Of a stretch of DNA of 64,000 nt, positions 21,563 through 58,650 are shown one piece after another. Within the stretch, counting starts at the first letter, position 1. The number at the start of each line of letters is the position of its first letter. A model generated the notes under the pieces. It was given only the letters and a program-made list of their open reading frames with translations. It made no database searches and was not told the origin of the DNA. The translations under genes were made by a program, and so were the position numbers. This stretch comes from Amoebophrya sp. A120. Lineage: Eukaryota; Protista; Dinoflagellata. Location of the stretch: positions 8,693,642 to 8,757,641 of the forward strand of contig CAJINV010000001.1 of assembly GCA_905178155.1 (NCBI GenBank), in the 5' to 3' direction.

Positions 21563-22451
21563 GTTCCTCGTGGAGCTTCGCGGTGGATGAAACCCATTTT
21601 GTGTTTCTATTGGGAATTCAATTGTTGCTCTTCGTCTTTTCTGCAGGGGCAGAGCAGCTGGCTGTGCGAAAATAAAGTGGAAGCTTGCAAGTGGCAGCAG
21701 GCAGCGAATGAGGTACTCACTTCAAGAGGTAGCCGCAACATGAGCAGACCTTCGATTGGTGGTGGGTGGCTATGGCGGCTTCTTATTTCTGTGTCACGGT
21801 GTCCAGGTGTTTCAAAAAGCTACGTTAGTTTTCGTGAAGCCGCTGGCGCAGTCCTTGCTCACAGCGAATCGTACAAAAAACATGATCTTACACCATTTCA
21901 GATCGGTTTCGGTACAGAATGGTATTGGCGTCATCGTGCTCGTGAATTGTCGCAATTTTCAGGTAAATGACTTCAAGTATTTATCCTCGATGCGAGGAAC
22001 AGACTCGTCACATATTTGATTCACTGAAAAATTTTTACAAAATTCTCAATGTCAAAACCTGTGCTTGTCTCGGATTCATCCCATTCCGTGGTCGCTGGTC
22101 GAAATGAAAGCTATCGTCCTTCGTCGCGCAGCAGTCTACCTACGTCGTGATGATCGTGTGTCGTGAAACTCCTGGATCGGTGCTACTTACGTCATTGACT
22201 CAGGCTTAGTCGGTGTAGAGGTTCGTAGACAAGTTGAAGCAACTATGTCAGAAAAAGAAGACGTTGGTTTCCGTTGCGACGAACATATAAGTATCGCTGA
22301 TGAACAAGATCGTATCTACACTTCATAGATTAGTTTGGTGGTGGTCTGAGCCCCATGTTCTTTGTTTTTTTTTCAGAAAGGGCCAGTTTCTGTACGAATA
22401 AATGGCGTCACCACCGTAGGGCAGAAACGTTAAACTAGAGAGCAAAAAAAA

Positions 22452-25400
22452 ATGGTGCTCCACCGCCCAGCGCCCAGCGCGGATCAAGATGACCCGGGCG
22501 CCTTTTCATTCGCAAGCACGAACCGGTTGCATGCGCGCCGGGGTCCCAAAGACCCGGACACGATCTTCGTAGGGGAGACGCCCGATTTTGTGTACTTGAT
22601 TGATTCGCTGGGTAATGTGTTGGTGGACGATATCCAGGAAAAAAAGTGTGTAAGTGTAACTTTCTTTGAGACACAGCATCACAAATTTGCTCTACATGAC
22701 AAAGAAAACCTGTCATGCGTGGCTTATAAGGGAAAACACACATGGAAAGAGGACTTCGTGTCTGTCTGGCATGACAGGTGTAACTCTGTTGCATGCTCTG
22801 CAACACAAGTTTACACTTACACAGTTTTTTTCTTGCATAGACGACGATCTCCGTCTGGTACAGCCCGAGGACTTGACCTGGTCGTCGCAGGGAAAGGTGC
22901 AAGTAGTAAACAAGCGGAAACTATCCTGAGTAAAAACGTACCCACACCAGAGTTGTAATGCAGATTTGCAAAGACAGGAAGACTTGTAATGCGCATCCCC
23001 ATGAGAGCCATTTCCAATCGTGTTTTGGAATTTGTGATGCTGTGAACAGGATGAGCAGATGAATCTGTGACGCGGCTGCACTTGCTAACCTGCACTACGC
23101 TGCAGAGTGCAGCTTGTCATGCGTGACTCACAAAACTCCGAGGTTTGTGTTGCAAAATCCTCATCCTGACTCTGGTGTGGGTACGTTTTTACTCAGGATA
23201 GAAACAAGGAAGTAAGAGCAGCAGACCGGCACGTCCCACCGCGGGTTCTTTCGGGCTGCTGCAGAGCCGAGGCGACGCTGTGGTTCTGGACGAAGCGCAC
23301 GCGAAGAAGCGACCCCTGGTCAAGGACGTGTCGGAGCAGATTGCAGCGGACTTTGCGAAGTCGGTGAAGCAGTCGACGAAATACCTCGGATATGCGCCAA
23401 CGGTGTCCACGGGCGGGTTCCAGGCGAAGCCTGTGTTTCCCCAGCAGCACACGCAGTACAGTGCAACGGGACAGTGGAATTCGAAGTTGTTCGATGACTA
23501 CTTGGAGGACACCAACGCACGTCTCATGCGGTCCGTGGAAAACATGCGGCAAAGTCAGAACGGCGACTATTCAAGGCGAAAAGCGTGGCGGTTTTTTGTC
23601 TCAGAAGGGCTATGCCATTTTTGCATGATGGTTCTTTGATAATCTCCTCGCCATGATGTGCTGCTGTCAGCTGATTCGATTGGATTTTCAATCGCGTGAC
23701 CGCATTAAATTCTGATACATAGATACAACAATCAAAGGTCATGCTGGTCATCCACTCAACCATGCAAGCATAAGCAACGCCCGAGGTGTACTAGTTCAAC
23801 GCATTATTTTGCTTCTTGATTGCAGCAAACCGGAGGGAACGACACACTTGACTCCTCGCGCACGGCAACGCGATGGGGCCTATTTCAAGGTACTATGGCA
23901 AGAACGGATTTTCTCTTTTTTGCAAAGTTGTGGCAGTTGTACGTACAAGTCGGGGGAGACTTCTGAAGGCCCATACCCACTATATTTTTTTATGTCATTC
24001 TGCTTTACATATGTCGTGCGTAGCAGTTATATCAATTTACATGATCAAGCAAGAGGGTTGCACACTCCGACGTCGGGCTGGCTGCCCGATGTCGACCAGC
24101 TTCCGCTGGTTCTCTGTCCTCTATCTAGAATCTCCGCTTCGTCCGGGCTTGCCTGGACTCGGCGTTTTTTCCCCGCCCTCCCACCCAGCTGCTGCAGCTT
24201 CATTGCGAGATACCCTGCGGCACCCCCCGCAAGCCTCCCCAGATGTTCGGTGGGCCATGTCGTGTTCCACGGCTTGGCCCACCTTCACGTCCGGGGCGTG
24301 GCTCTGTGGGGTTTGAGAGCTTGGCTCGCGCGGCTTGCTACTTGTAGCTCGCTGTGCCGGCCGGGTTCTCTTCTTGCTCGCCAGTGTGACCGTCGCAGGG
24401 CGTCCCGCGACGAGGACTGCAGCGCGCGTCAGCACTGCCTTCGATTATCATCGTTTCCGCGCGCTTTCGCTCGTTGGGTGAATTGCGCCAGGAATGTGAA
24501 TTTATATGTCGTGCGTAGCAGTTATATCAATTTACATGATCAAGCAAGAGGGTTGCACACTCCGACGTCGGGCTGGCTGCCCGATGTCGACCAGCTTCCG
24601 CTGGTTCTCTGTCCTCTATCTAGAATCTCCGCTTCGTCCGGGCTTGCCTGGACTCGGCGTTTTTTCCCCGCCCTCCCACCCAGCTGCTGCAGCTTCATTG
24701 CGAGATACCCTGCGGCACCCCCCGCAAGCCTCCCCAGATGTTCGGTGGGCCATGTCGTGTTCCACGGCTTGGCCCACCTTCACGTCCGGGGCGTGGCTCT
24801 GTGGGGTTTGAGAGCTTGGCTCGCGCGGCTTGCTACTTGTAGCTCGCTGTGCCGGCCGGGTTCTCTTCTTGCTCGCCAGTGTGACCGTCGCAGGGCGTCC
24901 CGCGACGAGGACTGCAGCGCGCGTCAGCACTGCCTTCGATTATCATCGTTTCCGCGCGCTTTCGCTCGTTGGGTGAATTGCGCCAGGAATGTGAATTTAT
25001 ATGTCGTGCGTAGCAGTTATATCAATTTACATGATCAAGCAAGAGGGTTGCACACTCCGACGTCGGGCTGGCTGCCCGATGTCGACCAGCTTCCGCTGGT
25101 TCTCTGTCCTCTATCTAGAATCTCCGCTTCGTCCGGGCTTGCCTGGACTCGGCGTTTTTTCCCCGCCCTCCCACCCAGCTGCTGCAGCTTCATTGCGAGA
25201 TACCCTGCGGCACCCCCCGCAAGCCTCCCCAGATGTTCGGTGGGCCATGTCGTGTTCCACGGCTTGGCCCACCTTCACGTCCGGGGCGTGGCTCTGTGGG
25301 GTTTGAGAGCTTGGCTCGCGCGGCTTGCTACTTGTAGCTCGCTGTGCCGGCCGGGTTCTCTTCTTGCTCGCCAGTGTGACCGTCGCAGGGCGTCCCGCGA

Positions 25401-28400
25401 CGAGGACTGCAGCGCGCGTCAGCACTGCCTTCGATTATCATCGTTTCCGCGCGCTTTCGCTCGTTGGGTGAATTGCGCCAGGAATGTGAATTTATATGTC
25501 GTGCGTAGCAGTTATATCAATTTACATGATCAAGCAAGAGGGTTGCACACTCCGACGTCGGGCTGGCTGCCCGATGTCGACCAGCTTCCGCTGGTTCTCT
25601 GTCCTCTATCTAGAATCTCCGCTTCGTCCGGGCTTGCCTGGACTCGGCGTTTTTTCCCCGCCCTCCCACCCAGCTGCTGCAGCTTCATTGCGAGATACCC
25701 TGCGGCACCCCCCGCAAGCCTCCCCAGATGTTCGGTGGGCCATGTCGTGTTCCACGGCTTGGCCCACCTTCACGTCCGGGGCGTGGCTCTGTGGGGTTTG
25801 AGAGCTTGGCTCGCGCGGCTTGCTACTTGTAGCTCGCTGTGCCGGCCGGGTTCTCTTCTTGCTCGCCAGTGTGACCGTCGCAGGGCGTCCCGCGACGAGG
25901 ACTGCAGCGCGCGTCAGCACTGCCTTCGATTATCATCGTTTCCGCGCGCTTTCGCTCGTTGGGTGAATTGCGCCAGGAGTGTGAATTTATATAATGTTTG
26001 TTCCACCTTGTCGAAAAGGAAAAAAATCGGAATCAGGATCGCGTTGCGAAGAACCGCGAGCGCATTCGCGGTGCCCGGTTTGCGTATTTTGCCCAGCAAA
26101 ACATGGACGAGTTGGAACTTTTGGAGAAGGCACCGGACTGGGTGGCGGAGGGGAAGCTTTCGGAGTGGGACGAGCACCGGCACTTCCAATCGCACAATGA
26201 GGACGGGAGTCCGAAGAGCTACGCCACGCTGGCCGACGAGTTTATGAAGCACAACCGCGACGTGCCGATGACCAAGCGGAAGATGCGTGCACTCGTGGAG
26301 GCCCGCGAGGCGGAGAAAGTGGAGGAGCTCGCGCGGCTTCGCCAGGCGAATGAAAAAATGCTCTCGCTGGACAAGCCCACGGTGGAATCCCGGAAGCGAT
26401 CGTCAAAATTCGGATTGGAAACGGGTTCGGGTGCGTTCGAGCGCCGGTACAGCCCCGCCAACCGGCTCGCCCCCGGCCCGGTGGTGGCCGACCTGGCCGT
26501 GCAGGATCTGCGGGCCGCCGCGGAAGCGCTCGAGCGGGAGGATATCAAATGCAAAAATGTCTGGGTCTGGAAGGATGCAACTTGTGATGCGCATTTCACA
26601 ACACACAAAAATCTCTCATGCATAGGTAGCAAAAGCTGCCCACTTTCTGTCACCAAAATGGGGGATTTGTCATGTTGATTTGGCATTGCTGAAGCTTCTC
26701 GAAGCCTGTGATGCTAGAGCTTCCATGCCAGACCTTCTGTGTCATGCAAAAACAGTATGACTCTTCCAGACCCAGACATTTTTACATTTCATAGAGGACG
26801 AGCTCATGCAACGCAGAGACGCCGCAGTCGGAGTGGTCGCGCGGCGCCCCAAGTCCGCACCCGCGGTGGAGACTACTACATCCAGTGCTGCGGAGGGTGC
26901 AGCTCCTGTGCTGGACGACACGATGAACAACTCGCTGAATTATACCATGAAGAGTGGCGCTGGTGCACTTTCCACGTCTAGCAGCAAACAACCCGGTGGA
27001 GGAAGCAGATCTAGTGGTCTCACGACCCGCCAGGGGGAGAACATCAAGATGGCGTATCACCACTCCCGGGGGATGGTGAGACCCCTGGGTGCACCCGGGT
27101 GGAACTCGTGTCCCCGGTCCGCCAAGACCTTTGACGGCATCGCACCGGCGCACCACTGGAAGAAGCGCCAGGGTTCGCGCCGCCCGGATGGAACCAGTGC
27201 GTACGAGCGGGTCGGTGGGCAGCATCACCGCATCCCGACCTCCGCCTCCGACGTCGGCCAGCACTTCCCGAGGGGCGCCGCCGACCGCCTGCGCCAGGTC
27301 ATTTTCACCCGAGCAAAAGCCAAGGCGAGACCGCCGGTTGCAGTGCCGGAAAGGCCGCTATTCACGCAAGGCGGAACACTGCTCAGTGAGCAGCCCCGTT
27401 TCTTGTCATACCAGAAATCGGTGGAACCTGGCGAATTAGATGTAGCGGAACACGAGGCAGCGGCAAAAGATTTTGAGAACTACGCCAACGAGAACAACAA
27501 CGTCGTTGACCGACAGGACGTCTCGGGCTATCGGGTGGTAACCAAACAAGACGACATCACCTCTCAAGGCTACGACGAGGGAGATATGGCGAGTGGCGGA
27601 TCACGAGGAGATTTGCTAAAATCCGGAACGTCAGGACCCCTGGATAAGAGCGGTAAGTACTTGTGTTGAAGACCTTTGTTGTTTAGTCTTCCTCTTCTAA
27701 AAATTCAGTCCAAAGCATGTACAGCTAAGTTCAAGGTCGTTCTTAGGAGACAGACTACTTAAATGTTTTTACGTGCACACAACGAAAGGAAAACTGAAAC
27801 TTTTCAGTAATCGTAAAAATATCAACGGCAGATCATGTTACTTTATCCTGATACTCGACTGATAGATTTTCTGCTCCTTCAGGTACAGGGAGGAACAAGA
27901 GTAACGTGACCGTCAGTGAAGACATTGACGCACTGATACAGCGCACGCTCGAAGGCCACTTGCGTAAAGCGATAGCGGAAGAGGGGCCGGACTCGGAGCG
28001 CGCGCTCGCCATATCCATGAAGTTGGGTCTAAGCCGGACACCGAGTCGGAAGCCGCCGTCTTCTTCAAAGGCCTCGGTGCTTGGGAAAGAGCCCTCGGGC
28101 GCAGACTTTCCGGATTCTGATGACGTCCCGCCCACGACGGAGGAGGAAACCATCTTTGTGCCCCCGACCAAACAGGAGGCCAGGGTGAGTGCCGCGCAGG
28201 GACGCGGAAGCAGCACAGCTAGTGCCGCTGATCGCGGAACGACTGGTAGCAAAAAAAGCGCTTCTGCTAGTGGTGCTGCAACACGACCTGCCGGCGTCAA
28301 AAAGTACAAGGAGCTGGGTGCTACAGTGGACGCCAGGGAAGTAAGTGAGTTCAACAGAACGAGCAAAGAACCAAGAAATGCCAACGACGCGGATGAGCAA

Positions 28401-31400
28401 CAAGATTACTCGGAGCCGCGTTCACTCTCGGAGTTGGTTGCGACGGGACGTGGTACTATCAGTAAAGGACCCCGGGATAAAGCCGCGTTCACGAAAGAGC
28501 GCGGCTCGAGCGCAGACTCAGCCGAACGTAACAGAGACAACCAGGCAGGTACTCGTCCTTCCGGTCCAGCGGCCGCGGCCACACGGTCTTCTAATGACGC
28601 AAGTCGGAGGACCTCGAGAGCTCACGATGACACCGAGGGTAGCTATGCGCGGTCGCGGTCGCCCCCTTTACCGACCGAAGCTCCCGCCTTCCACATGCTG
28701 GTTTCCCGGTTCTCCCAGCCAGAACCCAACGAGGCCGGGCAAGCCATCCGCGGCCTTCGCGACCCGCTGACAAACCTTCCGCCCGAAACGAGTCCGCTGG
28801 ACGAAAACCGAAAGCAACAGCACTTCGGGGAGCGCCGGCTCGACCCGCGTGACGGTATTCCACTGTCCTACGACGCGTGGCTTACCAAGTATCCATGGAG
28901 CAGCGACGACCAGGCGCGCGAGGTTTGGGGCGAGCTGATTTTGCACCACATGTCCCAGGGGGACGACCACGAGGTGCGGACAAGCGCGGCGCTTGCAGTC
29001 GCACCGGGAAGTGGACGCGCGACCAGCTCAAAAAATAACAGAGCGGGGGCCAGCACTCCAACGAGAAAAACCTCGTTGGACGAAGAACAACCACCCGTCC
29101 CGCGATTGCCTTCTCAACAAAAGAGCTACCGTCGTGACCAACAGACTCCGAGCCCGCCGCGGCAGCAGGGGCAACCGGTGCCGGAGGTGCGCCCGACGCA
29201 AGTGGACTTTCCGGCCAAGCGAGTCGGGCAAGACGGCAGAAGTCCGGGCTTGCTCGGGGCCGGACGGGGGGTCGGGGGGTTCGATATGTTTGGCCCCAGC
29301 AAACGGCCGACAAAGCCGGCGGAAAGTTTACCCGCCCCGTACAACACCAGTCACGTTGGTCCCGGGGGGGCGACCAAAGTCGCTTTTCCCTTCGGTATGA
29401 ACGCCTCTCTACAACCACTCACGGCGGCGACGGCCCATCCTTTCGCCACCGATGCGATGATACCAACCCGCATTCCAATGCGCGGGGACCACCGCGGAGT
29501 AGGAACAATGGCAGCGTCCTCCCGTGGTGAAACCAATCCATATTTTGCATCACCCAGCACCGCCGCAGCACCACCAGGCCGAGGACGCCCGGGAGCGAGT
29601 ACGAGCCCCTTCGCGCAGCGGCTTTTCGGTTACCAGGGTGCAGCTAGGGGGGAATCTTTTTCAAACCCCGCAACATCCGCCTCGCCGAGTAAGCAGAACT
29701 TCATGTTTATGCCAGAAGGAGCAGCGGCGGGCCACGACAATCAGCAGTGGATTGCGATGATGCTTGCCACTCAGCAACAGTTGCTTGCCGCGCTCGCAGC
29801 GCAAAATATGGGTGGCGGGATACTTGTACCGCAGCTTCCGGGATCAGGGTCTTCATCTTCCGCTAGCTATACCCCCTCCACCGAACGAGGACCCCCTCCA
29901 CGAACCAGGACCAGCAAGGCCGATGTAGAAGCAGCAGTGACAGTAAGAACGCCAGCAGTTCCAGTTCAGCAGCTGCCCTGGGCGAGAGCACCAGATCATG
30001 AGGTATTTCAACCAAGAAGCAGGACTACGTCGCCTGAAAAGGTAGCCTCTGCGTCGAGTAGAACTGCAGCTGCAGCCAACAAGGTTCTGATCGACTACGA
30101 TACGAGAGTCAGTCAGATAGGGACCATGTTAGACGCAGAGAAACATCAAACAGCCGATCATCTTGACGGCGACCAGGTGGAGGTGCGGGGAACGCGACCA
30201 CCAGCACCATTGAAATTGCTAACGCAGTTCACACGCGCCACACCAAACACAAATTTTCACGCGAGCTGCGAAACATCGCTGGAGGAACCCATCGGCAAAG
30301 CAAATGATGAAACTACCACAACCAACAACTACGTTGCTGTAGCTGCTGTTGACGATGTAATTGTGGACTCGTATAAAAATGTAGTTCCAGAAGTTGCGAG
30401 AGCACAGCTTTTGCAAGATGCAGCTACACCAGATGAAAGTCGTGCAAAGGACTTGGTCCAGAGCTGCAGCAGAGCGGCGAGAAAATTTGATCCAGTGGAA
30501 CCACCGGCTGAGATCATTTCCGAGGAATTTTATTCCCCGGGAGTAAAGAGACCGTCTCTAGACGCGGGGCTTGGTTCTCCAGACCAACCGGGCCGGTCGT
30601 CGCCGGAGGTGCCGCGTTTGGTCGTCTCGTCCGCCGAGGCGGAGGGGGCAGAAAAAAAGTCACCGCTGGTGCCGGGGGGACGCGAGGACAATATTAAGAC
30701 AGCGGTTGTTCATGTTGACCTTGACGTCGAGATCGAGCGAAATGGTGCTGGGCCCGTGCAGCTATTAGATCTCAGCGTGGGGGGCGAAACTATTTCACGA
30801 GCGGACACGACAGAGGACAACGCCTCGTCTTCTCGTTTGTTCGCGGGGGCCGAACCCGATGTCGCTTGTTCGTCGTCCACGACAGGATCGCAATTCCGGA
30901 GCAACCAGGCGCAGCTGGCCGAGCCGCGGCGCGGTGACGAGCCGCCCCGGGCACGCAGCAACGTGAGTTGGCGACGGTCAGGTGACTTGCCAGAAAATAT
31001 TAAGGGAGAGCGCACCAACAAAAGCGGCTTCAGCGACATGTTGTTCGATCCCGCGACGGCACTCTCATCGGCACCCACGCCCGCCACGGCAACCACCGCG
31101 ACCGCGAGTCGCCTCGATCACCTACTGGCGCAGGCCGCGGCCCGGGAGGTACAGCTCGAGGAACCTGGGTTGTTCGAGAGAAACCCACTGCTGGCCGCAT
31201 CAAGGGACGGCGGAGAGCGGCAACTTTCTTCGTTCGGAACCCCGGGCGGCGGAGCTCCACTTCATCCCGGAGGTACAACTAGAAACACCAAAAGTCCGAC
31301 GACCCGCAGCGAAGCGAATTCTCTATCGCCGTCCACGGCTGGGGCAGCCACCCGGAAGATCGAGCACCTGTCCGGGGGGTTGTTCGAGAGCTTCGCCGGC

Positions 31401-31613
31401 GTGCGGGGCCGCTTGCGCAGCACCGGGGGCAACAACTCCGCCTCCTCGCCAGAGATGGATCACCGCTCGCTACAGGAAGCCAAGGCGAAAGTTATGAAGA
31501 ATCTCTTCTCGCAGTCCTCGGGTCCCCCGCGCCAACGCGTCCACCGTGGCGCTGCTAGTACTGGTGCAGCAAGCACGCCGAAGATCTACACGCCGTTGCC
31601 GGAGATGCAATGA
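22452..31613 (+). CDS. Large (~1930 aa) low-complexity hypothetical protein; exons 22452-22630, 22845-22921, 23206-23575, 23826-23889, 26019-26542, 26799-27652, 27883-31613
   Basis: Three introners (I, J, B), a GC-AG intron 23576-23825 and GT-AG introns 23890-26018 and 27653-27882 join all ORF pieces into 5799 nt in frame. The middle exons are less certain. Confidence 0.6.
22631..22839. mobile_element. Introner I (TIR family 2), 209 bp
   Basis: TATCCAGGAAAAAAAGTGTGTAAGTGTAA...TTACACTTACACAGTTTTTTTCTTGCATA; TSD GACGA; reverse-complement homolog of 45938-46151. Confidence 0.92.
22922..23200. mobile_element. Introner J (TIR family 3), 279 bp
   Basis: Perfect 32-bp TIR TATCCTGAGTAAAAACGTACCCACACCAGAGT; TSD GAAAC; frame restored into ORF 23280. 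Confidence 0.93.
24009..25992. repeat. Four head-to-tail 495-bp units, nearly identical, probably intronic
   Basis: Units start at 24009, 24504, 24999 and 25494. The only difference I noticed is A>G at 25979. Confidence 0.95.
26543..26793. mobile_element. Introner B (TIR family 1), 251 bp
   Basis: TATCAAATGCAAAAATGTCTGGGTCTGGAAG...CTTCCAGACCCAGACATTTTTACATTTCATA; TSD GAGGA; restores LERED|ELMQRR. Confidence 0.93.
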
Positions 31614-33186
31614 AAAATTTCGAGACAATTAATTATCATCATTTCCATGAAACAAAAAGTAAATAGAAACACAGGAAGATGATGAACACGTACACGAGGC
31701 ATAGATACTTACTCCTCATGATGAGTGTCGTTTTCGAGCCTTACTATTCATTGCTTCGTACCAGTACCAGTTAAGAAATGTGCCGTCTCTGGGTGAGAAA
31801 TGCCTTAGTGCCACGTGCTCGTCTCCTGGAGCACCCGACTGATGATACAAAATCAATGAACAAGGAATAAAAGAATGCCAAACTACCAATAGATTCTACT
31901 GCGGAATATCGTTTTCAAACATAACAATGGTTTTATTAGCAAGTGCCACAACATTGATTTTTGTTTAATCATTTTCATGTGTGTGCTGCAGGTCCAGGTG
32001 CAGCTTCACTCACTCTTATTCATGCATCGTTTCATCTGTTTTTTAATTTTAGCTCCTAGTTCATCATCATCCACCTCGTACGTGCTTCCTTCTAGCGCTA
32101 GCCTGTTCGTTGGGGCCAGCACTCACGGCCTACTTCCAATCACACACATCAATCATACTAAACCAGTAGTCATCTGGAAAAGGCTAAAAGCTTGAGCTTC
32201 CCTGGTTATATTTTGATTTGCTGTACAGTATTACTTAACTACTAACTCTAAGGATTGAACGAGATGCACATGCATGCTGTGAACAATTTTCTGCTTCTGT
32301 ATTCATAAAGCTCAGTGGCAGTTGACTGGGCCTGGTCGGAATTTCGAATGCGAATCTCAACAGGAAATGAAAGATTTAGGAAACCATGCTCGCAGATTTA
32401 GCAAACCACCTTGTCTGTACAGATTCATTGAACACCACCAATATTTTCCTTCTCATTCATATTTTTATGTCAGGTTTCGTGGGACATACAAAGATGTGCC
32501 TCCGTCCGAAACAAAGGACAGCGGAGGAAATCGCGTCGAGTGTTAAGTATCGATGCCAGTGATGCGCATGCGACAGATCCAACGCATCCGCACGTTGCAC
32601 GATCCTTTCTTTTTGATTTTTGAAACCGTGTGACAGTGCGACGATCTTCAGGATCTATCTTTGAATGGACCACAATTTCCCATCTCCATTTTTTCTTTGT
32701 AGTTGTACCTACTTTTTTTTTTTGGGTGCACAAAAAGAAGATGAAGAAGTGATGCGAGAGGGAGTCCGTCGATTGTCCATTATTTTTTGGAGGCGATTTT
32801 TTTTTTGTTGAAGGCAATAGTCTAAGTCTTAGTTCTTAGTCTTTATCGATCAGTGTCCGACCACCTGAGCATCAGCGGGTAAGCCTGATGCTTTTTTTTT
32901 GGGATCCTCAATGATATAAGTTTGTGATGTTGATGTGCCAGTCAGTCTCCCGCAGTGTTGGAGTTTGATGTTGTAACTCTCTTTGAGGCATTGTATCATA
33001 TGTTGCAGGTAGCGTCTTATGCCGCGAGATAAAACAGGGTTTTTTCCCTTTTGATATACTTAATTTTCCTTGAAACTGCTAAACAGTCGGAATTTAAATT
33101 TTGATTTTCCGTATCCCTATTATCTTGTGCTAGAATTCGTATGAAGACGGGACCTCATCCTCAAGTTTGATTGAGAAAGAAGTACT

Positions 33187-34891: not shown

Positions 34892-35944
34892 AGTCTGCAG
34901 AGTACCATGGGCCACATTCCGCGAAAGCGAGAGCGACTCGTTACTTTCACCTCCAACAGGGGAGGTATCTATCAAGTATGTCATACTTTTTTTTCTATAC
35001 GCACGAGCCGGCTCACAATGTATACAGTAAGGCGACAATGAAATTCAAATTTGACTTACGCGGATATTGATGATGTGATTGCGACCATAGGCATAGCGCT
35101 TCCTTTATATTGCTTACAACGAACTTACCACACACAGTAAAAGTTTTCTTCTGCGGCGATTCCCGCCCGACACGAATAATGTTGATTCTGGTGAAAAGAC
35201 TCCTTTCGTTCCTTCTAGTACTATTCCCACTCGGTGGCCGCTGCTCGGAAGAGGAACAGAGGAAGCAGGATCTTGCTTCTGGAGTGGTATCATCCATAAG
35301 AAAGTGTGCTCGACGACCTGTATGTCAAAATAACAATAAGGCGACCGGAGCTTCGTTCGAACTTCGAGCTCTTCCTTCAATTTCTCTAACCATAAGGAGC
35401 GCCACTAAGCAGGGCATAGTTCCAACCCAGGGCGCGCTTGCACCGATAATCGCATGAGAATTTGCGCGAGAAATTCAAATGAGTGCTAACAGGCAGCGAA
35501 AATCTAGATCGTCACGTGTCTGTGATTCGAGGCACACTGTGATCAATCAAAATCTGCACTTGCAACGGAGACAAGTACAAGGAGAAGTGACTATCAGTGT
35601 TCATAGTGATCGCCCTTCAAGAATTTGTGCCGCGATATTTCACGTACATGTCCTTGCCCCGGGGCTGAAGTTCTTAGTTGTTTTTCTCCGGGATTTATTT
35701 CCACTTGCACTTCCGACAAAAACGTTTCGCAGAATTGTATATAATTTCTATTTCATTTGAATAAGGACCTGGGAGTTGTTTCTCCAACTGCCAAGAGCAA
35801 CCCAGCGAGTTCAAATCCAGCGGGCGCATGCTAAACGAAAGCAAGAGGAAGAACGAAGTACTGAGGACGACAGGAACAGCAGCAGCCAAAGCCATCCTTC
35901 TATGTCGTTTTTGGAACTTTTATAGCCCTTTTGTCAGTAATTTG

Positions 35945-36044
35945 NNNNNNNNNNNNNNNNNNNNNNNNNNNNNNNNNNNNNNNNNNNNNNNNNNNNNNNN
36001 NNNNNNNNNNNNNNNNNNNNNNNNNNNNNNNNNNNNNNNNNNNN
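35945..36044. other. Assembly gap (100 N)
   Basis: Run of N. Confidence 1.
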
Positions 36045-37268
36045 AAAAAATATAATTTCTATTTCACACCTACGTTGGTGACCAGGTCCTCCTCGTACAA
36101 CACAAATGCCCCCGATATTTTGTCGTTTAGTTTTTTCGAAAATATTCAAAACAACTCTAGCGCAATGACGGTGAGGCTCTCGTTTGATCGTGGTCGCCTC
36201 GGTCCAGTATCGTTGTCGCACATGAGGTTGCAGCAAGCGAGAGACATGATTCAATATCGTGCTTTGTTTTCCTTTTCCACCAATCGAATTCGATTTCGTT
36301 TCGGTTACCAATAGATTGATAGAAGCCGCGTAGAAGCAGGATATTGGTGGCACTGTTGGTGTATCCCATGTACTCAAAAATTTTTTTGGCATTGTTTGCA
36401 TGGAAATCAAGCGCATTACAAGAAGATGAAATTTATGATAGCAACGTATTTGTTGGCAATCAGAAACTACACGTTATTGCTAAATATGCTGATCACTCGC
36501 AATAACAATATGAAAGAGACAGTAGATCGAGTTCCACTTCCATGTGGGGTTTGCGTTTGGGATGACATTGGCAAAACAAACATACGATCATAAAATCGAC
36601 GCGAAAAATTAGAATTCATGATCATGAAGATCCCACATAATATTCTTTCAAGCAACGAACTTAAACGAATGCAAAAAAATCCAACGTTGACAAAAATAAA
36701 ATGTGGCTCCTTGTCATTTCTGTTTGGTAGGGTGAAAATCATATGACCTGGTCAGGGAACTACAACACGAAGATGAAATGTTTGAGTCCAAAAGTCGCAA
36801 TCAACAATTTTGGCAGGGATACATTAATTTTGTTTTGTGTGCGGCATGACTGCGGAAATGCTCACCGCACCATTTGATTTTCGTAGCATGCGGAAATATC
36901 GCTATCGCAGGATCTGAGGCCGCCGACCCTGGGTCGACGGCTTTAGAGCATGTAGACAGTTCTTGTATACCTAGGCATGAAACAACCATGAATATCAGAA
37001 GAATCTTGAATTACACGATTATATTAATGACACAAAGTATGGGTGAACTTTTGGAAGGTAGGAGAAGACGAAGAGTATAATTCTAAAGCTCAGATTCATA
37101 GCACGACAACGACAGAAAAATTACTATACGACATCTTGACAACTGCAACTCCATGTAGCAGGGTACTTTTTTTTTCGGTTGATCGTTGCTGCGGCCTGTT
37201 TTGAGTGTGTTTCCTTGATCCGGAAGCATAACTCTTGTACTTGTAAAAAAGCAGGACTGTGAAACTTG

Positions 37269-40200
37269 ATGCAACATCGCCACGAGCTTCCGTCTCGCCC
37301 CCCTACCTTCTCCATCCGACGGCCCCCGGCCGGCGAGGATAGTACTCCGAGAACCGCTCGGTCTGCCGCTACAGCAACGTCTCATAGAGGACGTGGTAGA
37401 GTAGACGAAGTAGAGGACTTCTATCGCAGCAAGAACCACCATCGGGATCGCGACCATCGGGCCGCTCGCGCCTTCAACGACGAACGCATCCATAGTACTA
37501 CTGCAAGAACCTCTACTACTCCACCACGACCTGCCCTGGTCCTCGTGGGCAACAGCCGAGGATTGGAGCGTTCCCGCAGCCGTAACGGAGACAGAGAACA
37601 ACCTCGCCAACATCACCGGCGACGCTCTACTGCCGATCCCACCGCATCCTACATCAACCGCAAGAACTTTTCGCAAATAGAGTCACCCAGAAATAACCAC
37701 CACGGCGAAGAAGAAGCAGAACATCTCCCTTGTTCATCCACAAAGACCACGACCCGAGCAATCAATTATAGCCAGAAGGCTGCTGCTCGACGAGGAGATC
37801 TTCATAGTACACCAGGTCGTACTACTAGCGCACAGAACACTTCTAGACTTGTTCTTGTACCAAGGTCAACTACCTCTGCGAAAGACAAACGGGAGGACAA
37901 CAAAACGAGAACAAGGGAGAAAAATAAAGGAGACAACATGGGTAAGAGTGAGGAGCCGGTGTATCAGCGCGGCGACTACTTGCAGGTCGGCAGCTCGTCG
38001 GGCGGCAGCTCCTCCTCGAGTTCCGCCTCGGGCACGGTGCAGTCGCCGCGGTACCGGGTAGAGCAGCTCGTGGGGCATGGCGCATTCGCCGAACTCTACA
38101 ACGTGTACGACGAACGCTCGCGGTGCAACTACGCCGTGAAGGTGGAGAAGAGCCGGGCGGACGGGAACAGTAAACTGGAAAAGGAATCGCAAATCCAGCG
38201 CGATCTGCACAAAGCGCTAAACTCGCAGGCAGAGTACGAAAAGTCGAAAAGGTATAATAGTACATAGACGCGGCAACATATTCTTGCTTCTACTTAAGTA
38301 TACCTATTCCTTTTCATTCGGACCTGGATTAGTAAGATATACGAAAGGGGATGTCAGTGTCAATCTGAATGTCGAAGTTGTCATACTGGTGTCGAGAGAA
38401 TTAGAAAGACGCAAGAAAAAGCAGTCCACGACTTCGTACAGAGTTTGATTGACGAAGCAAAGTCATTGATGAACACTACCACAGAATCTACGTTCCCCGA
38501 TGGCACGGATTTCACACGACCGACAGTGGGCCGTACATGGTGCTGGACCTTCTGGGACGCGACCTCTCCAAGGTACGCAAGACCGTATCCCGGCATAAGC
38601 TGTCCATCAGCAGTGTGGGCTACCTCGGAGAGCAGCTGATCCGGATTTTGGAGAAGGTCCACGATCAGGGCATCGTTCATCGTGACATCAAGCCACAGAA
38701 TTGTACTTTCTAGTAGCTTGTTTTTGAATCGAGTAAGATGAGTACGCTGGTGTTGATTATGCGCATGCCGCATAATTTCAATTTGCATTCGTGTGATATT
38801 GATTCTTCGAAGACCTTGTTTCAGAGGAAAACGAGTACGCGTAGACGAGGATGCATGTATGATCTCTTGATGTTCAAAGGTGATTCGTGAATTTCATCTG
38901 CGTCTGCTCCGTGACAGAGAATTTTATTCGCATTTTGATAAATTCAAAATTACATCTCAGGTATGCTTGGCAACTGTCAAACAACGAAATTGAACCTCCA
39001 CCTTGTCGATTTCGGTCTCGCGCGGGAAGATTTTTTCGAAGACAAAGTGCACGCAAAACCTGCCACCGGTGTGTCGTTTCGTGGCACCGCCGCCTATGCG
39101 TCTTTGCGGTCCTTGGAGAACGTGGAACAAGGAAAGCGGGATGACATCGAAGGCGTGTTTTGGGTAAGATTTTTTATTTTGCTCCGCAGAAGTGGTGTAT
39201 GTTTGTCGCGCCGGCGCAAAGAACATATGCGAAGCTATTTTACAGATAATATGCACGGAAATTTGAATTATAATTTATCATCATTATCATCATCCGTTTC
39301 ACACTTCGTGGCTATCAATGAAATTATTGAATGTTTCACAGGTTTTCACGGACTTGTTGTGGGGCGGTCTGCCTTGGAGAAGGTTGAACCTTGGAAAGAG
39401 CAAGGAGCGGGATCAGAAAATCCGGTCCGGAAAACAAATGATCTTTGACGCGCTCGAAGACTGGGACGATGGTATTGAAACATCAATTCTCGTTCGTATC
39501 ATTTTCATCTCGACCTTGTTATTATAGCTTGTTTTGGATCCGTGGTCTAGGTTTCAGTTGTCTGCAGCTTCTACTGTACTTACTGAATAATTCAATTTTA
39601 GTGGTGGAGTTGCCATTTTTCAATCACTTTGATTTGAATTCATCTTAGGTCGCCTCCATCTGAAGCTGAAAGCGCATCGAGAGGGCGTCTACTCGGGTCC
39701 GATCGACGAGCATGGGGATTTTTGTCAGACCAGCAGCAACGATGGCGGGTCTCTGATTGAAGCCCTTCCCGAGCCCATGGTCGAATACTGCCGAGAAATG
39801 CGCAGTTTGGGCTTCAACGAGAAACCAGACTACAGCTTCTTCGCCGGCTGCTTCGAGAGGCTGAAAACTTTGGGTATGATACGTGATGTCTCAGATCAAC
39901 ATTAAAATACAAAAAGAATTTGACTCTTTGCTGCATGATTTTTGCTGATCATACATGTGTTATCACCAGCCACGCATCTACTTCTGTGCATCAAACTAAC
40001 GCGGTTACAACTTCTCCGCGCAAGCGCGCGCATTGGTTTCTTTTTTTGGTTGTACTAACTTCTAGTGCGGAAAAATTTGCGGAGAAAGTGAACGTCGCAT
40101 GATCTGTCCCCACAGGCGACCGCAATGGGAATTTGCGCAAGAAGTTCGAGGCCCGGACGCTTCGGGAGGCCATATCCAAGGAGATTTACGCGCATCACCA

Positions 40201-41140
40201 CGCGGACCAGAACTTCAATCGGCTCACCTCGATGGCCCCCATCAACAACAGCTTGCTGCAGCAGGTCCCGAACACGGCCCCCGTGTCCCGGAAGCGTACT
40301 CGCCCGGGGGACCACGAAGAAAACGAGATCGACGAGGAGGTTTTTCCTGCGGCCGTCCGACAAAAAAGGAGCAGCCAGAATCACGCCGCGGACCTCCAGG
40401 AAATTCTCGCGCAGCAGAGGAGTAAAAGGACCTCCCGGATGATCGAGGAGGAGTTGCAGCGCGGTGGCAACAACCCGGTTCTCCCCATTGATCCCGCGAG
40501 CGACCGCGTCGGGAACACGATTTACCCCAACAACAGCTATACAGGACCGGACAGCGGATTTATCCCCCCGCCGGCTGCGAAGCGCGCGTACCTGCAGGCC
40601 CACCCAACGAACACCAGCATGGCGAATGGCGGCTCGAGCTGCAGCAGCGGCGGCGGGCTGACGAGTCAGGCCGTAGAGTCCGTACGGCCGACCAGCAGTG
40701 CGGACGGTGGAACCGCAACCGCCCCGCAGCGACAACCGAACCAGCTCACCCGGACGCAGCGTGTCAACACCATGGAGCCCGAAGAGCTCGAAGAGCTGAA
40801 CCGCGGGCGGGGACGTACTACTGTCGCTGGTGACGGCACCACGCGGCCTCAGTCCGGCCGGAGTGGGCCGAATCGAAGCGGGAACGCGGCGCGGCGCTCA
40901 AGTCCCCCGCGCGACGGCGACGCAACTACCCGCGCAACGGGTGGTGCGACCAATGCGCGGACCGGGTCGGCGAAAAACGACAATCGGCGAAATAACTCCC
41001 GCAACGCGCCTGAGCAGGCCCCCAACTCCAGCCGCAGCAGCGCGCCGCAGAACAGTCGGGGGGGCAATAACACGCGCGGAAACGGGCGTGGTGGATCCTC
41101 ACGGCCCACCAGCAGTCGGCAACCGCGGAGCGGACGCTAG
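37269..41140 (+). CDS. CK1-superfamily (TTBK/CK1-like) Ser/Thr kinase; exons 37269-38251, 38485-38702, 38961-39163, 39342-39471, 39649-39873, 40116-41140
   Basis: Motifs GHGAFAELY, AVKVE, MVLDLLGRDL, HRDIKPQN, DFGLA, FRGTAAYAS, RDDIE, GLPW and EKPDY. All five introns are GT-AG. Confidence 0.9.
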
Positions 41141-42943
41141 TTCGTCGTAGCGCAAATACGACGAGTGGGTCTCCCAAAAATCTAAAATCATTGAGCGACA
41201 ACTAAAATCTTACTTCTTACTTACTTGTTCAACTGTACATCTTCAACGCTAACCTTTCCAAATAAACCAAGACGAAGTGATAAGATACGCGACAACATTG
41301 ACGCAAAAAGACGAACCGCATGATCTCAAAATATCAAAAAACATATAGAAGTCATTCCAAGCGCATTGTGCTAGTATCGTTTTCTTGTATCAACTAACTA
41401 ACAACTTATACTGAAATTTGCAGCTGCAGAAACGTCCTTCAAAGAGCACCTGTACGAAGCAACGCAAGAGAGCTGCGGGAAGAAGTCGTCTATTAAATGA
41501 ACAATCAGTCACTGCTACCTAGCATCGACAATGCAGTAATATACAGTTTCTGACCTCAGTGACGAGAGCGTCGAAACAACGTAGAAGGAGAATTTGGAAC
41601 GCCCGACAATCTATCAAGCGATAATTGTATGCAAAATCGGACTAAGAGCTGGCAGTCACACAATTTCTGATTTTTTGCGACGTAGAGCGGTGGGTGCTAG
41701 GGCTTTTCCTCCATTGAGTATCAGGCTTTCTTACACGACGACTATCCCACTGCTAGGACAAAGACCATTTAAGAATAAGACGTAGTTCGCGTGCCCGATT
41801 GTATAGTTGAAGATGTATTGTATTTATGTAAACCCCCGGCGTCACTCCTCCCCTTCCCTACCCAAAACTAATTCTTACGGAAGTTTTCTGAAAAATATCG
41901 AGATCCACCGCTTGTACATTCAAGTCGAAACTCGCTTTATTAATTTCACTCTTCACTGGCGACGCGAGAATCTTTCAAGAGCGGAAGAAATGAACGAATT
42001 TACGCTAAGCATGTACACTTTTTGTACGGAATGAAAAATGTCAATTTTATGCCATCTGCAAGTGTCGATTTGTTCGCATATTTTCTGAGTTTGAGGGAAC
42101 TAAAACTTCATCAACCTCCAGTTCTTTTTATAGCGTTTTTCGTCTGTACCGCTGTTCGACTTTGATTGTGTAGAAGTATAGTTGACCGGGCTCGGTTCTC
42201 GTCTTTACGTTTGCTCTTCTTTACAACTCACAGTTTTCTCACAGCGTAAGCGTATGCGTATGGTGTATTTTCGTCGCGTTCTTTCTGCTCAGGTCGCGTG
42301 ATTGATGTCCGACCAAGAAATTTTTCAAAATGATGAAAAATCCTCCTGCATTTGAAGGTATGGCAATGATTCTCAATAGGTGTACTGTACATTCTTGTTT
42401 TGCTCGCTAAAAACAGCAGTATCAATACAGCGAACCTGTTGCAGTCTTTGTACGTAAGAAACGCAATCATGACAGCCTGAAACAAACAGCGTGTGCATTT
42501 TTTGTGTCACTAGATAACAAAAAAATATCGTGAGACACACAAGAAAAGCCGGCACGCAAAAGCTTCTTCCGAAAAGGAATCTTGAAATAACTCCAGGCTG
42601 TCTTGTATCTGCACTTATTATCTTCCTCCAAAACGAATTAATACGAATCCTCCCCACCTTACAATTACTCCACAAAAATGCCGTCGCCGATCAGGTGTGA
42701 ACATGAAAAAAAAGAAAAGAAGTCAGTTTCAATTTGCCACTATTGCTCGTGCTGGAAGTTGTAGACAGCACGCATGCACACCCTGTGGTGCGACTTAGGT
42801 AAAGCTGTTCCTTTCCACATGGCTGTGCAACCAAAACATACAACTAACTGGCAGAGCACTTCCGCGCACTCTTCCTTTCCCGACAGGATGATCGCTAGAT
42901 TCACACTTTTTGAATTGCCCTACCTGCGCATAGCGCTTACACG

Positions 42944-45205
42944 TATCCAGGTCTCACTCTCGATCTCCTTCTACGATAAATGAGCATTTGTCGTAGACCA
43001 TTCCGGCCAACGCTCAAACCAGCTAAAAGTCGGTTTTGTTGCTGATCAAAAGAGAGTTTAGTAGTACTATCGTGTTGGTGAGAACGTGGATGGGTAACTG
43101 TAGATAGTGGTGAAAAAACGGATCTTGCGAGCGTTGTATTATTATCTCCTCGACCTAAAACTCGTTTTTACTTTCCTTTTTTGTAAAACTCACCTTGTCC
43201 CGATAAGAAAGTCAAGCACTCGCTCACTTTTGCTCTAGCTTTGCCTTTTCCCTTTGCACAGTATTAGCTTGTTGTTGGTAAGAGAAAAATTATCTCCCCG
43301 ACCTGTAGCTCGTTCCGCCTCCTCCTTTACAAAAAAAGTGAAATTTTCCGCCTTTCGAAATCAGCAACAAGTAGATCGTTATGTTTTGACTAGCGCTACC
43401 TAGAAATAGTCGATCTAGCCTACCTAGAGTTTCGTGCCACAAGAGAGCCCGGTGAAAGAAGTTGAAAAGTGAACCCGCAGAGAAAGACAGACCGTGAAAC
43501 CTGGACAATCGCTGCCATAGTCGACTTTGTCGGCTGGCTAGCTATGTATGTTTTATGTCTCCTCGGCCGGTAGCGAGCCGCATCTTCGCGAAAGCCGTGC
43601 ATTTGCCACTAGTTATAGGTGAGACCGCATCTCTCACGCCCCGCGTTGTTCCTGGGCCGTAGTGTCATATCTACTTCTCCAGGCGCGGCGCATAGCGCTT
43701 TTTTTCGATTTGTAGACCCTCGTCGGCACAACTTTTAGATTGTAACGTGGCGGCGCGCGCAATGCGAATGCTATCGCTCGCGGTGCTCAGTTCTCTCTGA
43801 GTTTTGGATTTCCCTTGTCGGGGTGACGGTTTTCTAGTTAGGTTCAGCCTGGGTCGATTTGGGTCGACAGCAGTACTTTTCAGACGATAGGACGTCTTTC
43901 TCTTTCTGTGCGTTCCGAAGGGAGTTTTGTTTCGCGTCCCCACCAACGGACCGGCTTGCGCTGACTGTCTGCTAGGTCCTGGCGGGCGCCGTTCGCCCAG
44001 GTGGAAGTGTGTCGCGTCCTACGGGTTTCGTAGTGGAGTTAGTTTTGCGGTGTCCTCTGGTGGGGGACGGTTTCGCTATCACAAACCGGCTTTTATAGGC
44101 CCCCCCGGCCGAGCCAGCCAAGGGGACGACGGCCGGGCTTTTGCCTGGGGGGCGTGCTCCCTTTAGTATGGCCTCAGTGCCCCGGGATCGGGTAGAAGTT
44201 TTTGCCCAGGTGGGGGTCTGTGGTTTTGTGTCATGGGCTAGTTGCCACCGTTTGGGTGCAGTTGGCTTCTCGCCTGATTGTTTGCTAGCAGGCGGCTTTA
44301 GGAGCCGTCTCAGGGTGTTCTCTAGCTGAGTTGCGGGTGGAACAAGGAGCCCTGGGCGGGTTGCGCGTACGGGTCTCGGGGATTGCTCGCGGACAGAGGT
44401 TCTAGTTTTTCTTAGTCTGTTGCCCGTTAGGCCCTTCTCCAGGTCGGAAGGGCCCGCCTCGTCGTTTCACCATTCGGGTGCCCGGAATCCAAGCAAGCTC
44501 GCCTTTGTTTTCGCGCTACTTACGGGTGCTGTCCGCTTTCGTTCTCAGGGTTTCCTTTCTTCCAGATAGATCTCAAGGCCCGGTGGCCAGGGGAGGGCTG
44601 CCTTTGGAATTGCTTTTCGGCATTGAATGGCTGCAGATCTTTGTCGAGCTTGGCTCGCTGCTGTCCAGTTGCGCCCGCTAGTGGGGGCTGCTGTTGGTTG
44701 GCGGGTCCTTGGGTGACCACTGTTCTGTTGATGGACAGGCACTGTGCCTTGTTGCCGGTTTTGTTTGGCCCGCTTCGCCTTTGTCAGAAGGGGTAGCTAG
44801 CACCGCGTCCCGACGAGGATTGCTGCGAAGTGGTTGGCTTTTTGTTGAAGACTATCGAAGAAGCCTGTACTCGCCTTGTTTTTTTTTGTTGATGGTTTGC
44901 TGCTTTCTCATCACCCCTGTGCCGCGTGGATTGTGGGTGCTATTGCTTGTTGCTACGCCGTTTCTCCCTTCCATTTATTTCCGACACAGCTTGGGGCTGT
45001 TTTCCTGTTTCGAGGGGGTTTTCCGCCTCTTCATTATTGTGGGAGGTTCGCGCTGCCGTTCGTCCGGCGGCTGGCCCTCCTTGTGTCATTGCTATCTCGC
45101 CCTATCTCGCCCTCCTTGTGTCATTGCTATCTCCTGTGCCAACGTGGAGCAAGGAAAGCGGGATCCCTATCCAGGTCTCACTCTCGATCTCCTTCTACGA
45201 TAAAT
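42944..45205. mobile_element. 2.2-kb compositionally distinct segment between 38-bp direct repeats (possible insertion or decayed TE)
   Basis: TATCCAGGTCTCACTCTCGATCTCCTTCTACGATAAAT at 42944-42981 and 45168-45205. The interior is G/T-skewed and has no credible ORF. Confidence 0.5.
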
Positions 45206-45552
45206 ACGAAAGATCATGACTCAGGATCCCATCAGCCCCCAAGTTGTATATATCGTAGTGCTATTTCAAGGCTCAAACTAGTATGAAGGAAAGCAGCGAC
45301 AAACGAAAGTTTGTTCAGGAAAGTTCTTTTGCTTGTACAGTGAAAAGTTTTTACTAAAAAAAAACTTGGAATTCGAATATTGACATAACTCGCTTCGTTT
45401 GGTGATTTTGTATTTGTTCCCATTCCTCAGCGAAACAAAATCTTCATTTAGTGTGTTGATAAGTAAGGCTTTTGAGGTTGTGATTTGTGAGACATAGGAC
45501 GTTCATCTTTCTTTTCCTGCAATTGGAAAACTCCGTATAAAAATCGAAGAAA

Positions 45553-46500
45553 ATGGCGATTCTGTCCAAGTTGAAGCACGTGACCGCTGCCGCCCTTTTC
45601 CTGGGCACGACGATGCAGCAAAACTTCCGACTGGCAGCTGCGGAGGACGCCGCCGCGGCGGACGACAAGGAGCTTGACGACCTCGATGACGAGTCCACCG
45701 CCGCTTCGAGTGTCCCCGGCGAGCCGCTGGTGCTGACGGACGCCTCGTTTAAGAGCGAGTTGGACAAGGCCCTGAAACCGATGTTCGTCAAGTTTTACGC
45801 GCCCTGGTGCGGGCACTGCAAGGCGATGGCGGCGGACTGGGACAAGCTCGCGGAACAGGCGACGGGGGCGGTGATCGCGAAGGTGGACGCGACGGTGGAG
45901 CGGGAAGCCGCGAACTTGATGAAGGTGCGGGGCTTCCTATGCAAGAAAAAAACTGCGTGAGTGTAACTCTGTTTATGCAGAACATGCTACTACGCTTACG
46001 CCTGTCATGCCAGACAGCCATGAGTTCCTCTTTTCATGCGTGTTTTCCCTTACAAGTAGCCACGCATGACAGATTTTCTCTGACATGTAGAGCAAATTTG
46101 TGATGCTGTCGGCCAAAGATAGTTACACTAACACAGTTTTTTTCTTGGATACTTCCCGACGCTGACCCTGTTCGACAAGAACGTGATGTACAGCTACAAC
46201 GGGCCGCGGACCCTGGACGCCATGCTGCAGTTCGCGAACGGCGGCTACAAGGCGGGTAGTAGCAAAAACCTGCCCTGGAACGAGTCCATCGTGGACAAGG
46301 TGAAACAGCACGTGGAGGAGTACTTCACCAAGGTCGGCCAGATCATGGCCTTCGAGCCGACCATCCTGCCAATTTGCTTCTTCCTCGGCTTCTTCTTCGC
46401 GTTTATTTTCTTCTTCCTCTGCTGCGGCTTCTCCTCCTCCTCGTCCCCGGTCGACAAGAAGGAGCTGAAAAAGGCGGAAAAGGCAGCCAAGGCGGAGTAA
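45553..46500 (+). CDS. PDI/TMX-like thioredoxin-domain membrane protein; exons 45553-45937 and 46157-46500
   Basis: FVKFYAPWCGHCK and IAKVDAT. Removing introner H restores VRGFPTLTLF...YNGPRT. N-terminal signal-like segment and a C-terminal TM helix. Confidence 0.92.
45938..46151. mobile_element. Introner H (TIR family 2), 214 bp
   Basis: TATGCAAGAAAAAAACTGCGTGAGTGTAACT...AGTTACACTAACACAGTTTTTTTCTTGGATA; TSD CTTCC. Confidence 0.95.
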
Positions 46501-58543: not shown

Positions 58544-58650
58544 AATATAGCCTAAGCCCACCTCGGTTGTATCTATCACGTAAGGTGAGGTAGAGCCGAG
58601 ACCATTTGTTTGAAGAAACCCGTTTTCCCCCGCAGTAGTAGATCTTCAAG

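What the first reader, a model, noticed from the sequence alone, without database searches (positions are those of the whole stretch)
22631..46151. A second, independent family also occurs in both orientations (I versus H)
Seen: the reverse complement of 22631-22839 aligns with 45938-46151 (shared CCTGTCATGCCAGACAG, GTGTTTTCCCTTA and CATGTAGAGCAAATTTGTGATGCTGT). Bidirectionality therefore looks like a general property of the system and not a quirk of one family.
Basis: seen in the sequence. Interest (0 to 1): 0.75.

Follow-up and report, generated by a model that had tools for sequence, protein, structure and literature searches.

The report
Transposon introns removed in either orientation
In the marine parasite Amoebophrya A120, two copies of one small transposon-like element lie in opposite directions inside two genes, and both are missing to the base from transcript assemblies although neither has GT-AG ends; they belong to this strain's already published "introner" introns and are likely cut out using signals in their mirror-image ends alone.

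Summary
Confirmed. I (22631-22839) reversed matches H (45938-46151) end to end (84%; interiors 83% reversed versus 51% same-strand). Both run TAT...ATA with ~30-bp inverted ends and 5-bp flanking repeats, and both hosts read on the + strand: H splits a thioredoxin identical to an Amoebophrya A120 protein; I splits a gene colinear with an AT5.2 orthologue. Putative RNA contigs skip element plus 5 nt at H (depth 252; 22) and at I (one contig, 1 of 4 runs, depth 6; 24). No register gives GT-AG (35). A second family is also removed both ways round. These are the introner elements of Farhat et al. 2021 (PMC7789003). Either-orientation introners are in print for Polarella and Aureococcus, with canonical-type sites; I found no printed statement for these non-canonical ones. 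The scan noted this before elsewhere in this genome. Likely mechanism: termini-defined splicing by a relaxed spliceosome. A reverse-transcription artefact is unlikely but not excluded.

The parts
22631..22839 (.). Element I: 209-bp TAT...ATA introner element, ~30-bp terminal inverted repeat (26 of 30 matched), reversed relative to H
   Evidence: joint 22625->22840 (skips 214 = 209+5) in one X3 contig, depth 6, 61 letters on the short side, listed 'between: not known'
22626..22630 (+). Left 5-bp direct repeat (GACGA) of I; right copy 22840-22844
45938..46151 (.). Element H: 214-bp TAT...ATA introner element, same family as I in the opposite orientation (27 of 30 terminal bases matched)
   Evidence: X1 contig of 1285 nt, depth 252, joins 45932 to 46152 (219 = 214+5) with no differences; X5 contigs run unbroken into the element from both sides
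45933..45937 (+). Left 5-bp direct repeat (CTTCC) of H; right copy 46152-46156
45553..46500 (+). Host gene of H: 242-aa thioredoxin/PDI-like protein; spliced product identical to A120 protein GSA120T00005822001 / CAD7925964.1
   Evidence: Pfam Thioredoxin E 2.7e-18; P0007 identical
22452..29006 (+). Host gene of I (also holds elements 22922 and 26543); unknown function; orthologue g5895.t1 in Amoebophrya AT5.2; 3' extent inferred from homology only
   Evidence: tblastn of P0121 hits 22551-22631, 22837-22920, 23304-23549, 26037-26345, 27169-27351, 28836-29006, all on +; name
22922..23200 (.). Neighbouring element of another family, 279 bp, repeat GAAAC
   Evidence: joint 22916->23201 in one X3 contig, depth 6
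23567..23825 (+). 259-nt intron reading CT..AG (or TA..GC); likely a decayed element with broken flanking repeat, which limits the cut to the 1+4 or 0+5 register
   Evidence: joint 23566->23826, one ambiguous letter, in X3 (65 letters on the short side) and X2 (23 letters); termini compared
19810..20988 (.). Second-family element, 1179 bp, carrying a nested 908-bp poly(A)-ended insert; skipped whole
   Evidence: joint 19804->20989 in 4 of 4 runs
26543..26793 (.). Second-family element, 90% reverse match to 54615-54864; removal not tested with reads
51064..51315 (.). Second-family element, reversed relative to 26543
54615..55860 (.). Four elements in one + strand gene (54615-54864, 54908-55056, 55143-55405, 55456-55860); the first and third are second-family copies in opposite orientations
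   Evidence: removal of all four inferred from one X1 contig, 165 = 165 nt between aligned pieces

Best explanation
I and H are two copies of one family of Amoebophrya A120 introner elements that lie in opposite orientations in + strand genes and are both absent, with exactly one 5-bp repeat, from putative RNA contigs; they are likely non-autonomous DNA transposons that a relaxed spliceosome would remove using only their terminal inverted repeats. Steps: (1) inferred: a cut-and-paste transposase inserts the element either way round and duplicates 5 bp; (2) shown in sequence: the first and last ~30 bases read almost the same in both orientations while the interior does not; (3) predicted: the ends pair into a long stem in either orientation; (4) shown in contigs: element plus 5 nt is missing and the reading frame is restored; (5) inferred, weakly: the cut falls 1 nt before TAT and 4 nt after ATA, giving an N-T start that resembles a G-T donor and no fixed acceptor letters; (6) inferred: the catalyst is the U2/U5/U6 spliceosome core of a strain in which U1 was not detected.
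For: Interior homology in reverse. Hosts on + (codon-usage score best in the + frame for both hosts). Removing element+5 gives the best match to the AT5.2 orthologue among 11 lengths (219; next 208 and 206; retained 130). Skips in contigs at 9 of 9 elements laid: 4 direct joints, 5 by length arithmetic. The runs behave as mRNA: non-templated A tail after 21756, a GT-AG intron (50557-50742) also missing, zero depth at 21903-22538. GT..AG in no + strand register for 10 of 10 elements; H has no register ending in AG. Stem predicted, z -4.3 and -5.9, with like energy on both strands. A 908-bp nested insert does not stop removal. Farhat et al.: TAT+7 nt+AAA ends, 3-5 nt direct repeats, 83 of 89 spliceosomal proteins and U2, U4, U5, U6 found in A120, U1 not detected; all 9 predominant A120 non-canonical motifs in their Table S4 have T second.
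Against: The joint at I rests on one contig in 1 of 4 runs at depth 6; X1-X4 are one sample code and one study code, their RNA status is the tool's guess, and contigs show neither strand nor rare forms. Raw-read runs X8 and X9 gave 11 and 10 mostly partial reads and no junction. Hairpin plus direct repeat is also the recipe for reverse-transcription skips (PMC8240250). Nothing here tests the catalyst. The 1+4 register rests on one decayed element whose identity is inferred (right end ATT, no 8-mer, polypyrimidine-CAG end like an ordinary acceptor) and on published motifs whose placement inside a repeat may be a convention. No transposase was seen among 30 window ORF pieces scanned with Pfam, and Farhat et al. 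report none in A120.
Confidence: 0.6

Rival explanations
1. Removal is real and at RNA level but not spliceosomal: a structure-guided endonuclease-ligase recognises the base of the terminal stem and releases a linear or circular intron, as proposed for euglenid nonconventional introns.
For: Orientation symmetry, no fixed end letters, strong terminal stem on both strands, indifference to interior content. Euglena precedent: inverted repeats are said to be crucial and circular products reported (PMC12501133 passages). U1 not detected in A120.
Against: A120 keeps nearly all spliceosomal proteins and 35% GT-AG introns, and 15% of its canonical introns carry the same repeat layout, which suggests one machine; the likely decayed element at 23567 has poorly matched ends (7 of 15) yet is skipped; T at +2 in all 9 listed motifs looks donor-like.
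Confidence: 0.27
2. The skips are reverse-transcription artefacts: the enzyme jumps across the hairpin between the 5-bp repeats, and the mRNA keeps the element.
For: Same anatomy as 'falsitrons', a hairpin flanked by direct repeats, reaching up to 70% of cDNA reads (PMC8240250). The contigs are presumably from cDNA. Orientation independence would follow trivially.
Against: Retention would stop the thioredoxin ORF at 45960 inside its domain and shift the frame of I's host against its AT5.2 orthologue; removed length is not a multiple of 3 for 8 of 10 elements; the intron at 23567 is skipped with only one ambiguous letter; the skipped form is the main contig at depth 252 for H.
Confidence: 0.06
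3. The elements are cut out of the DNA in the transcribing nucleus, as ciliate internal eliminated sequences are, or the RNA comes from alleles without them.
For: Precise loss of element plus one repeat, in either orientation, suits a DNA-level reaction; 676 joints were not shown, so a joined DNA form is not excluded.
Against: X5 contigs cross both boundaries of H unjoined at depth 42-45. The putative RNA runs hold element-internal pieces of 19810 with no differences and one piece across its 3' boundary (30 letters each side, just under the tool's 31-letter rule) while the intergenic stretch has zero depth, which fits element-containing precursor RNA.
Confidence: 0.05

Closest known systems
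Introner elements (IEs) among the non-canonical introns of Amoebophrya sp. A120 (Farhat et al. 2021, PMC7789003; seen: abstract, sections 10, 11, 12, 16, keyword passages, supplement part 2 of 5 and Table S4 rows; figures not seen)
   Same: Same strain; TAT + ~7 nt + A-run termini, 5-bp direct repeats, hairpin, ~240 nt, no GT-AG, families of copies, no internal transposase.
   Different: Orientation of IEs is not discussed in what I searched: the 4 main-text and 3 supplement hits for 'orientation' concern gene orientation, and 'strand' has 0 hits.
Either-orientation introners of Polarella glacialis (bioRxiv 10.1101/2020.10.14.339549; seen: passages) and Aureococcus anophagefferens (Huff et al. 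2016; not held, known here only through that preprint)
   Same: DNA-transposon-derived introns with target-site duplications that form introns when inserted either way round; several classes.
   Different: Those use GT/GC/GA donors and AG acceptors carried by the element or taken from the duplication; I and H have no GT..AG register and H has no register ending in AG.
Nonconventional introns of euglenids (PMC12501133 and PMC11282704; seen: passages)
   Same: No GT-AG; terminal inverted repeats that pair; repeats at the junctions; proposed MITE origin.
   Different: Other lineage and other terminal motif (CAG/CTG near the ends); 'orientation' has 0 hits in both papers.
MITEs (non-autonomous TIR DNA transposons)
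   Same: Short, non-coding, terminal inverted repeats, fixed-length target-site duplication, both orientations.
   Different: Ordinary MITEs in exons disrupt the gene; these are skipped precisely. No autonomous partner or superfamily was identified here.

Membership tests
Amoebophrya A120 introner elements | Occurs in the A120 genome | tested here: met
   Spliced H host identical to A120 protein P0007
Amoebophrya A120 introner elements | Terminal inverted repeat starting TAT, ~7 variable bases, then at least 3 A | tested here: met
   All four termini of I and H; definition
Amoebophrya A120 introner elements | 3-5 nt direct repeat overlapping the exon/intron boundaries | tested here: met
   GACGA and CTTCC; 5 ambiguous letters at the I joint
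Amoebophrya A120 introner elements | Removed from RNA with non-GT-AG ends | tested here: met
   Contig joints and registers; strong for H, one low-depth contig for I; RNA status of the runs is a guess supported by a poly(A) tail and a missing GT-AG intron
Amoebophrya A120 introner elements | Repeated in the genome | tested here: met
   Two copies in the window; summed contig depth over H in X5 is far above the ~45 of unique flanks (not a copy number)
Aureococcus/Polarella-type introners | Canonical-type donor and AG acceptor in each orientation | tested here: not met
   I registers GA..TA, AC..AG, CG..GA, GA..AC, AT..CG, TA..GA; H registers CT..TA, TT..AC, TC..CT, CC..TT, CT..TC, TA..CC
Aureococcus/Polarella-type introners | Intron formed in either orientation from a TIR/TSD element | tested here: met
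Spliceosomal intron | Excised as a 2'-5' lariat by the spliceosome | not testable with these tools
   Needs lariat sequencing
MITE | Mobilised by a cognate transposase | tested here: inconclusive
   No transposase family among 30 window ORF pieces; no whole genome held; none reported for A120
Self-splicing or other catalogued structured RNA | Match to an Rfam model | tested here: not met
   0 matches at gathering score in the 64-kb window

The most novel reading that the evidence does not exclude
A120 has a strand-symmetric intron code: a ~30-nt palindromic pair of transposon ends is sufficient to define both cuts at fixed offsets (1 nt before TAT, 4 nt after ATA), with no GT, no AG and no interior signal, so that any insertion of these transposons in either direction and with any cargo is silently removed. 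It would be a splicing mode in which a transposon end replaces donor, branch and acceptor recognition.
Probability: 0.5. Interest if true: 0.72.

Novelty: already known. Interest (0 to 1): 0.42.

Why it matters
The element class is published, but how A120 removes tens of thousands of introns without GT-AG ends is still open. Showing that reverse-complement copies of one family are removed alike rules out any required strand-specific signal in the interior and confines the search to the inverted ends and the 5-bp repeat. That makes the question testable with short synthetic or naturally damaged ends, and it explains how such transposons could fill coding exons at little cost.

Tried and rejected
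No whole genome was held, so no genome-wide orientation count. No holder was on record as RNA; raw-read runs X8 and X9 gave 11 and 10 mostly partial reads and were uninformative. X1, X2 and X4 show no joint at I and no cover of the host's first exon: no cover, not evidence of retention. Word-indexed protein searches for I's host found nothing; the full HMMER search gave 3 hits, of which P0121 is the orthologue and P0122 and P0123 were dropped as weak repeat matches. The alignment to P0121 does not cover the 26543 junction well. A - strand host was considered: H has a long antisense open frame with no Pfam match; rejected. Palindromic elements with undefined orientation: rejected. An inner canonical intron from the donor-like words at 22650 and 45957: no such joint listed, but contigs drop rare forms and the table was cut. 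Rfam: nothing. Literature searches for orientation in Amoebophrya introners found no statement; Huff et al. 2016 is not held; PMC13326754 and PMC8469720 had no relevant passage; supplementary figures of Farhat et al. and datasets of the introner surveys were not seen and may show it. A sequence look-up in earlier findings gave only an unrelated hit; none near this window.

Full report
Observation. With 40 bases trimmed from each end, identity is 83% in reverse and 51% on the same strand; the score of 191 compares with a maximum of 62 in 500 shuffles; each interior against its own reverse complement gives 51-52%. So the two are homologous throughout and orientation is meaningful. Both start TAT, end ATA, have 26-27 of 30 terminal bases complementary and an exact 5-bp flanking repeat. 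The window holds 10 such elements.

Organism and hosts. The H host, with element and one repeat removed in a script, is letter for letter the 242-aa Amoebophrya sp. A120 protein GSA120T00005822001, a thioredoxin-domain protein. I's host has no Pfam family, but an AT5.2 protein (P0121, g5895.t1) matches it on the + strand on both sides of I without a gap, and further at 26037-27351 and 28836-29006. Among 11 removal lengths at I, element+5 scores best against that orthologue. Both hosts therefore read on +, and I and H are inverted relative to transcription. Element 26543, the reversed partner of 54615, lies in the same + strand gene as I.

RNA evidence. Four runs guessed to be RNA (X1-X4; one sample code, one study code; kept as contigs) hold the window. 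An X1 contig at depth 252 joins 45932 to 46152, skipping H plus 5 nt, while contigs of X5, which covers the stretch evenly at about 45, cross both boundaries unjoined. At I, one X3 contig at depth 6 joins 22625 to 22840, skipping I plus 5 nt, with 61 letters on the short side; the other three runs show no joint there and do not cover the first exon. Direct joints are also seen for 22922 (1 of 4 runs) and 19810 (4 of 4). Five more elements are removed by length arithmetic on two X1 contigs (165 = 165 and 316 = 316). The runs behave as mRNA: a non-templated A tail after 21756, a GT-AG intron at 50557-50742 also missing, and zero depth at 21903-22538. Raw-read runs X8 and X9 gave 11 and 10 mostly partial reads and nothing on junctions. 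Whether X1-X4 are independent of the published gene models is unknown.

Generality. The second family (19810, 26543, 51064, 54615, 55143) has 3 copies one way and 2 the other, all in + strand frames; two of each orientation are skipped, and 54615 and 55143, opposite copies, lie in one contig. I/H interiors are 42-49% identical to the four short copies of this family, about the level of unrelated pairs. They are separate sequence families of what is probably one system.

Mechanism. No + strand register gives GT..AG for any of the 10 elements; GC..AG and GA..AG are possible once each; some register ends in AG for 6 of 10, including I (AC..AG) but not H. Since the interiors of I and H are reverse complements in RNA, a required strand-specific interior signal is excluded unless present on both strands, and a 908-bp nested insert in 19810 does not block removal. 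What both orientations share is the terminal sequence and a predicted terminal stem (z -4.3 and -5.9; similar energy on both strands). The exact cut cannot be read inside a perfect repeat. Earlier notes of this scan proposed 1 nt before TAT and 4 nt after ATA. Here one likely decayed element (23567-23825) allows only that register or 0+5, and all 9 predominant A120 motifs in Farhat's Table S4 have T in second place; both supports are weak. Under it I reads AT..CG and H CT..TC. I favour a relaxed spliceosome (0.6) because A120 keeps nearly all spliceosomal proteins and U2, U4, U5 and U6, U1 was not detected, and 15% of its canonical introns have the same repeat layout. A structure-guided endonuclease-ligase is the main rival (0.27). 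A reverse-transcription skip fits the anatomy (PMC8240250) but would leave conserved genes broken (0.06); DNA-level loss is less likely still (0.05).

What is known. Farhat et al. 2021 (PMC7789003) describe these elements in this strain: 29,850 IEs in 1,954 families, TAT ends, 3-5 nt repeats, hairpins, unknown splicing (figures not seen). Their text and supplement mention orientation only for genes. Either-orientation introners are reported for Polarella and Aureococcus, with canonical-type sites (bioRxiv 10.1101/2020.10.14.339549, passages); one survey allowed opposite-orientation matches (PMC9860276, passages) and a later one, which covers A120, required the same orientation (PMC12130899, passages). 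Two reviews repeat Farhat's description (PMC11282704, PMC11453091; passages). Five searches found no statement that the non-canonical A120 elements are spliced either way round; unseen figures, datasets and subscription papers may hold it.

Verdict. The elements are an already described class in their own genome, and insertion in both orientations is expected of inverted-repeat transposons (established knowledge). The added value is the constraint on an unexplained splicing reaction. Earlier notes report the same property in other parts of this genome; they are unchecked and not counted as support. Interest 0.42.

Noticed in passing
window 20043-20950, inside element 19810-20988: A 908-bp insert ending in a 16-A run, flanked by a 19-bp direct repeat (20024-20042 and 20932-20950; its first four A overlap the run), is nested in a 271-bp second-family element; it looks like a truncated retroposon (no ORF over 78 codons). 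The whole 1179 bp is still skipped in 4 of 4 runs.
   Followed up: partly
window 22650, 22816, 45957, 46128: The inverted repeat of the I/H family carries a donor-like word (GTAAGT / GTGAGT) 19 nt inside the 5' end and, as its mirror, a branch-like word (CTTAC / CTAAC) followed by ACAG and a T-run at the 3' end, yet the contigs remove the whole element. The second family lacks these words.
   Followed up: partly
all 10 elements: An internal 8-mer (TGT[C/G/A]ATGC or its reverse) occurs 2-6 times in every element, across families, often in both directions: 35 hits in 3,451 bp against 4 in 60,549 bp. A candidate transposase binding site.
   Followed up: partly
window 24009-25993: Four identical 495-bp tandem units lie between a GT donor-like site at 23890 and the point where homology to the AT5.2 orthologue resumes (26037); each unit holds a TAT start loosely complementary to an ATA end at 25993, without a matching flank repeat. 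Possibly an expanded intron or an assembly artefact.
   Followed up: no
window 60285-60970 and 61163-61234: GC-rich minisatellite with 21- and 28-bp units and a short 12-bp array.
   Followed up: no
window 6083-8104, 16845-18068, 58642-59478: + strand ORFs with Pfam UCH, Methyltransf_16 and HAD_Pex22 matches; all identified genes in the window are on +, in line with the co-oriented gene blocks reported for this strain.
   Followed up: no
window 54609-55860: Four elements of three families sit within 1.25 kb of one gene, separated by 43-86 bp of exon, and all appear removed in one contig.
   Followed up: partly
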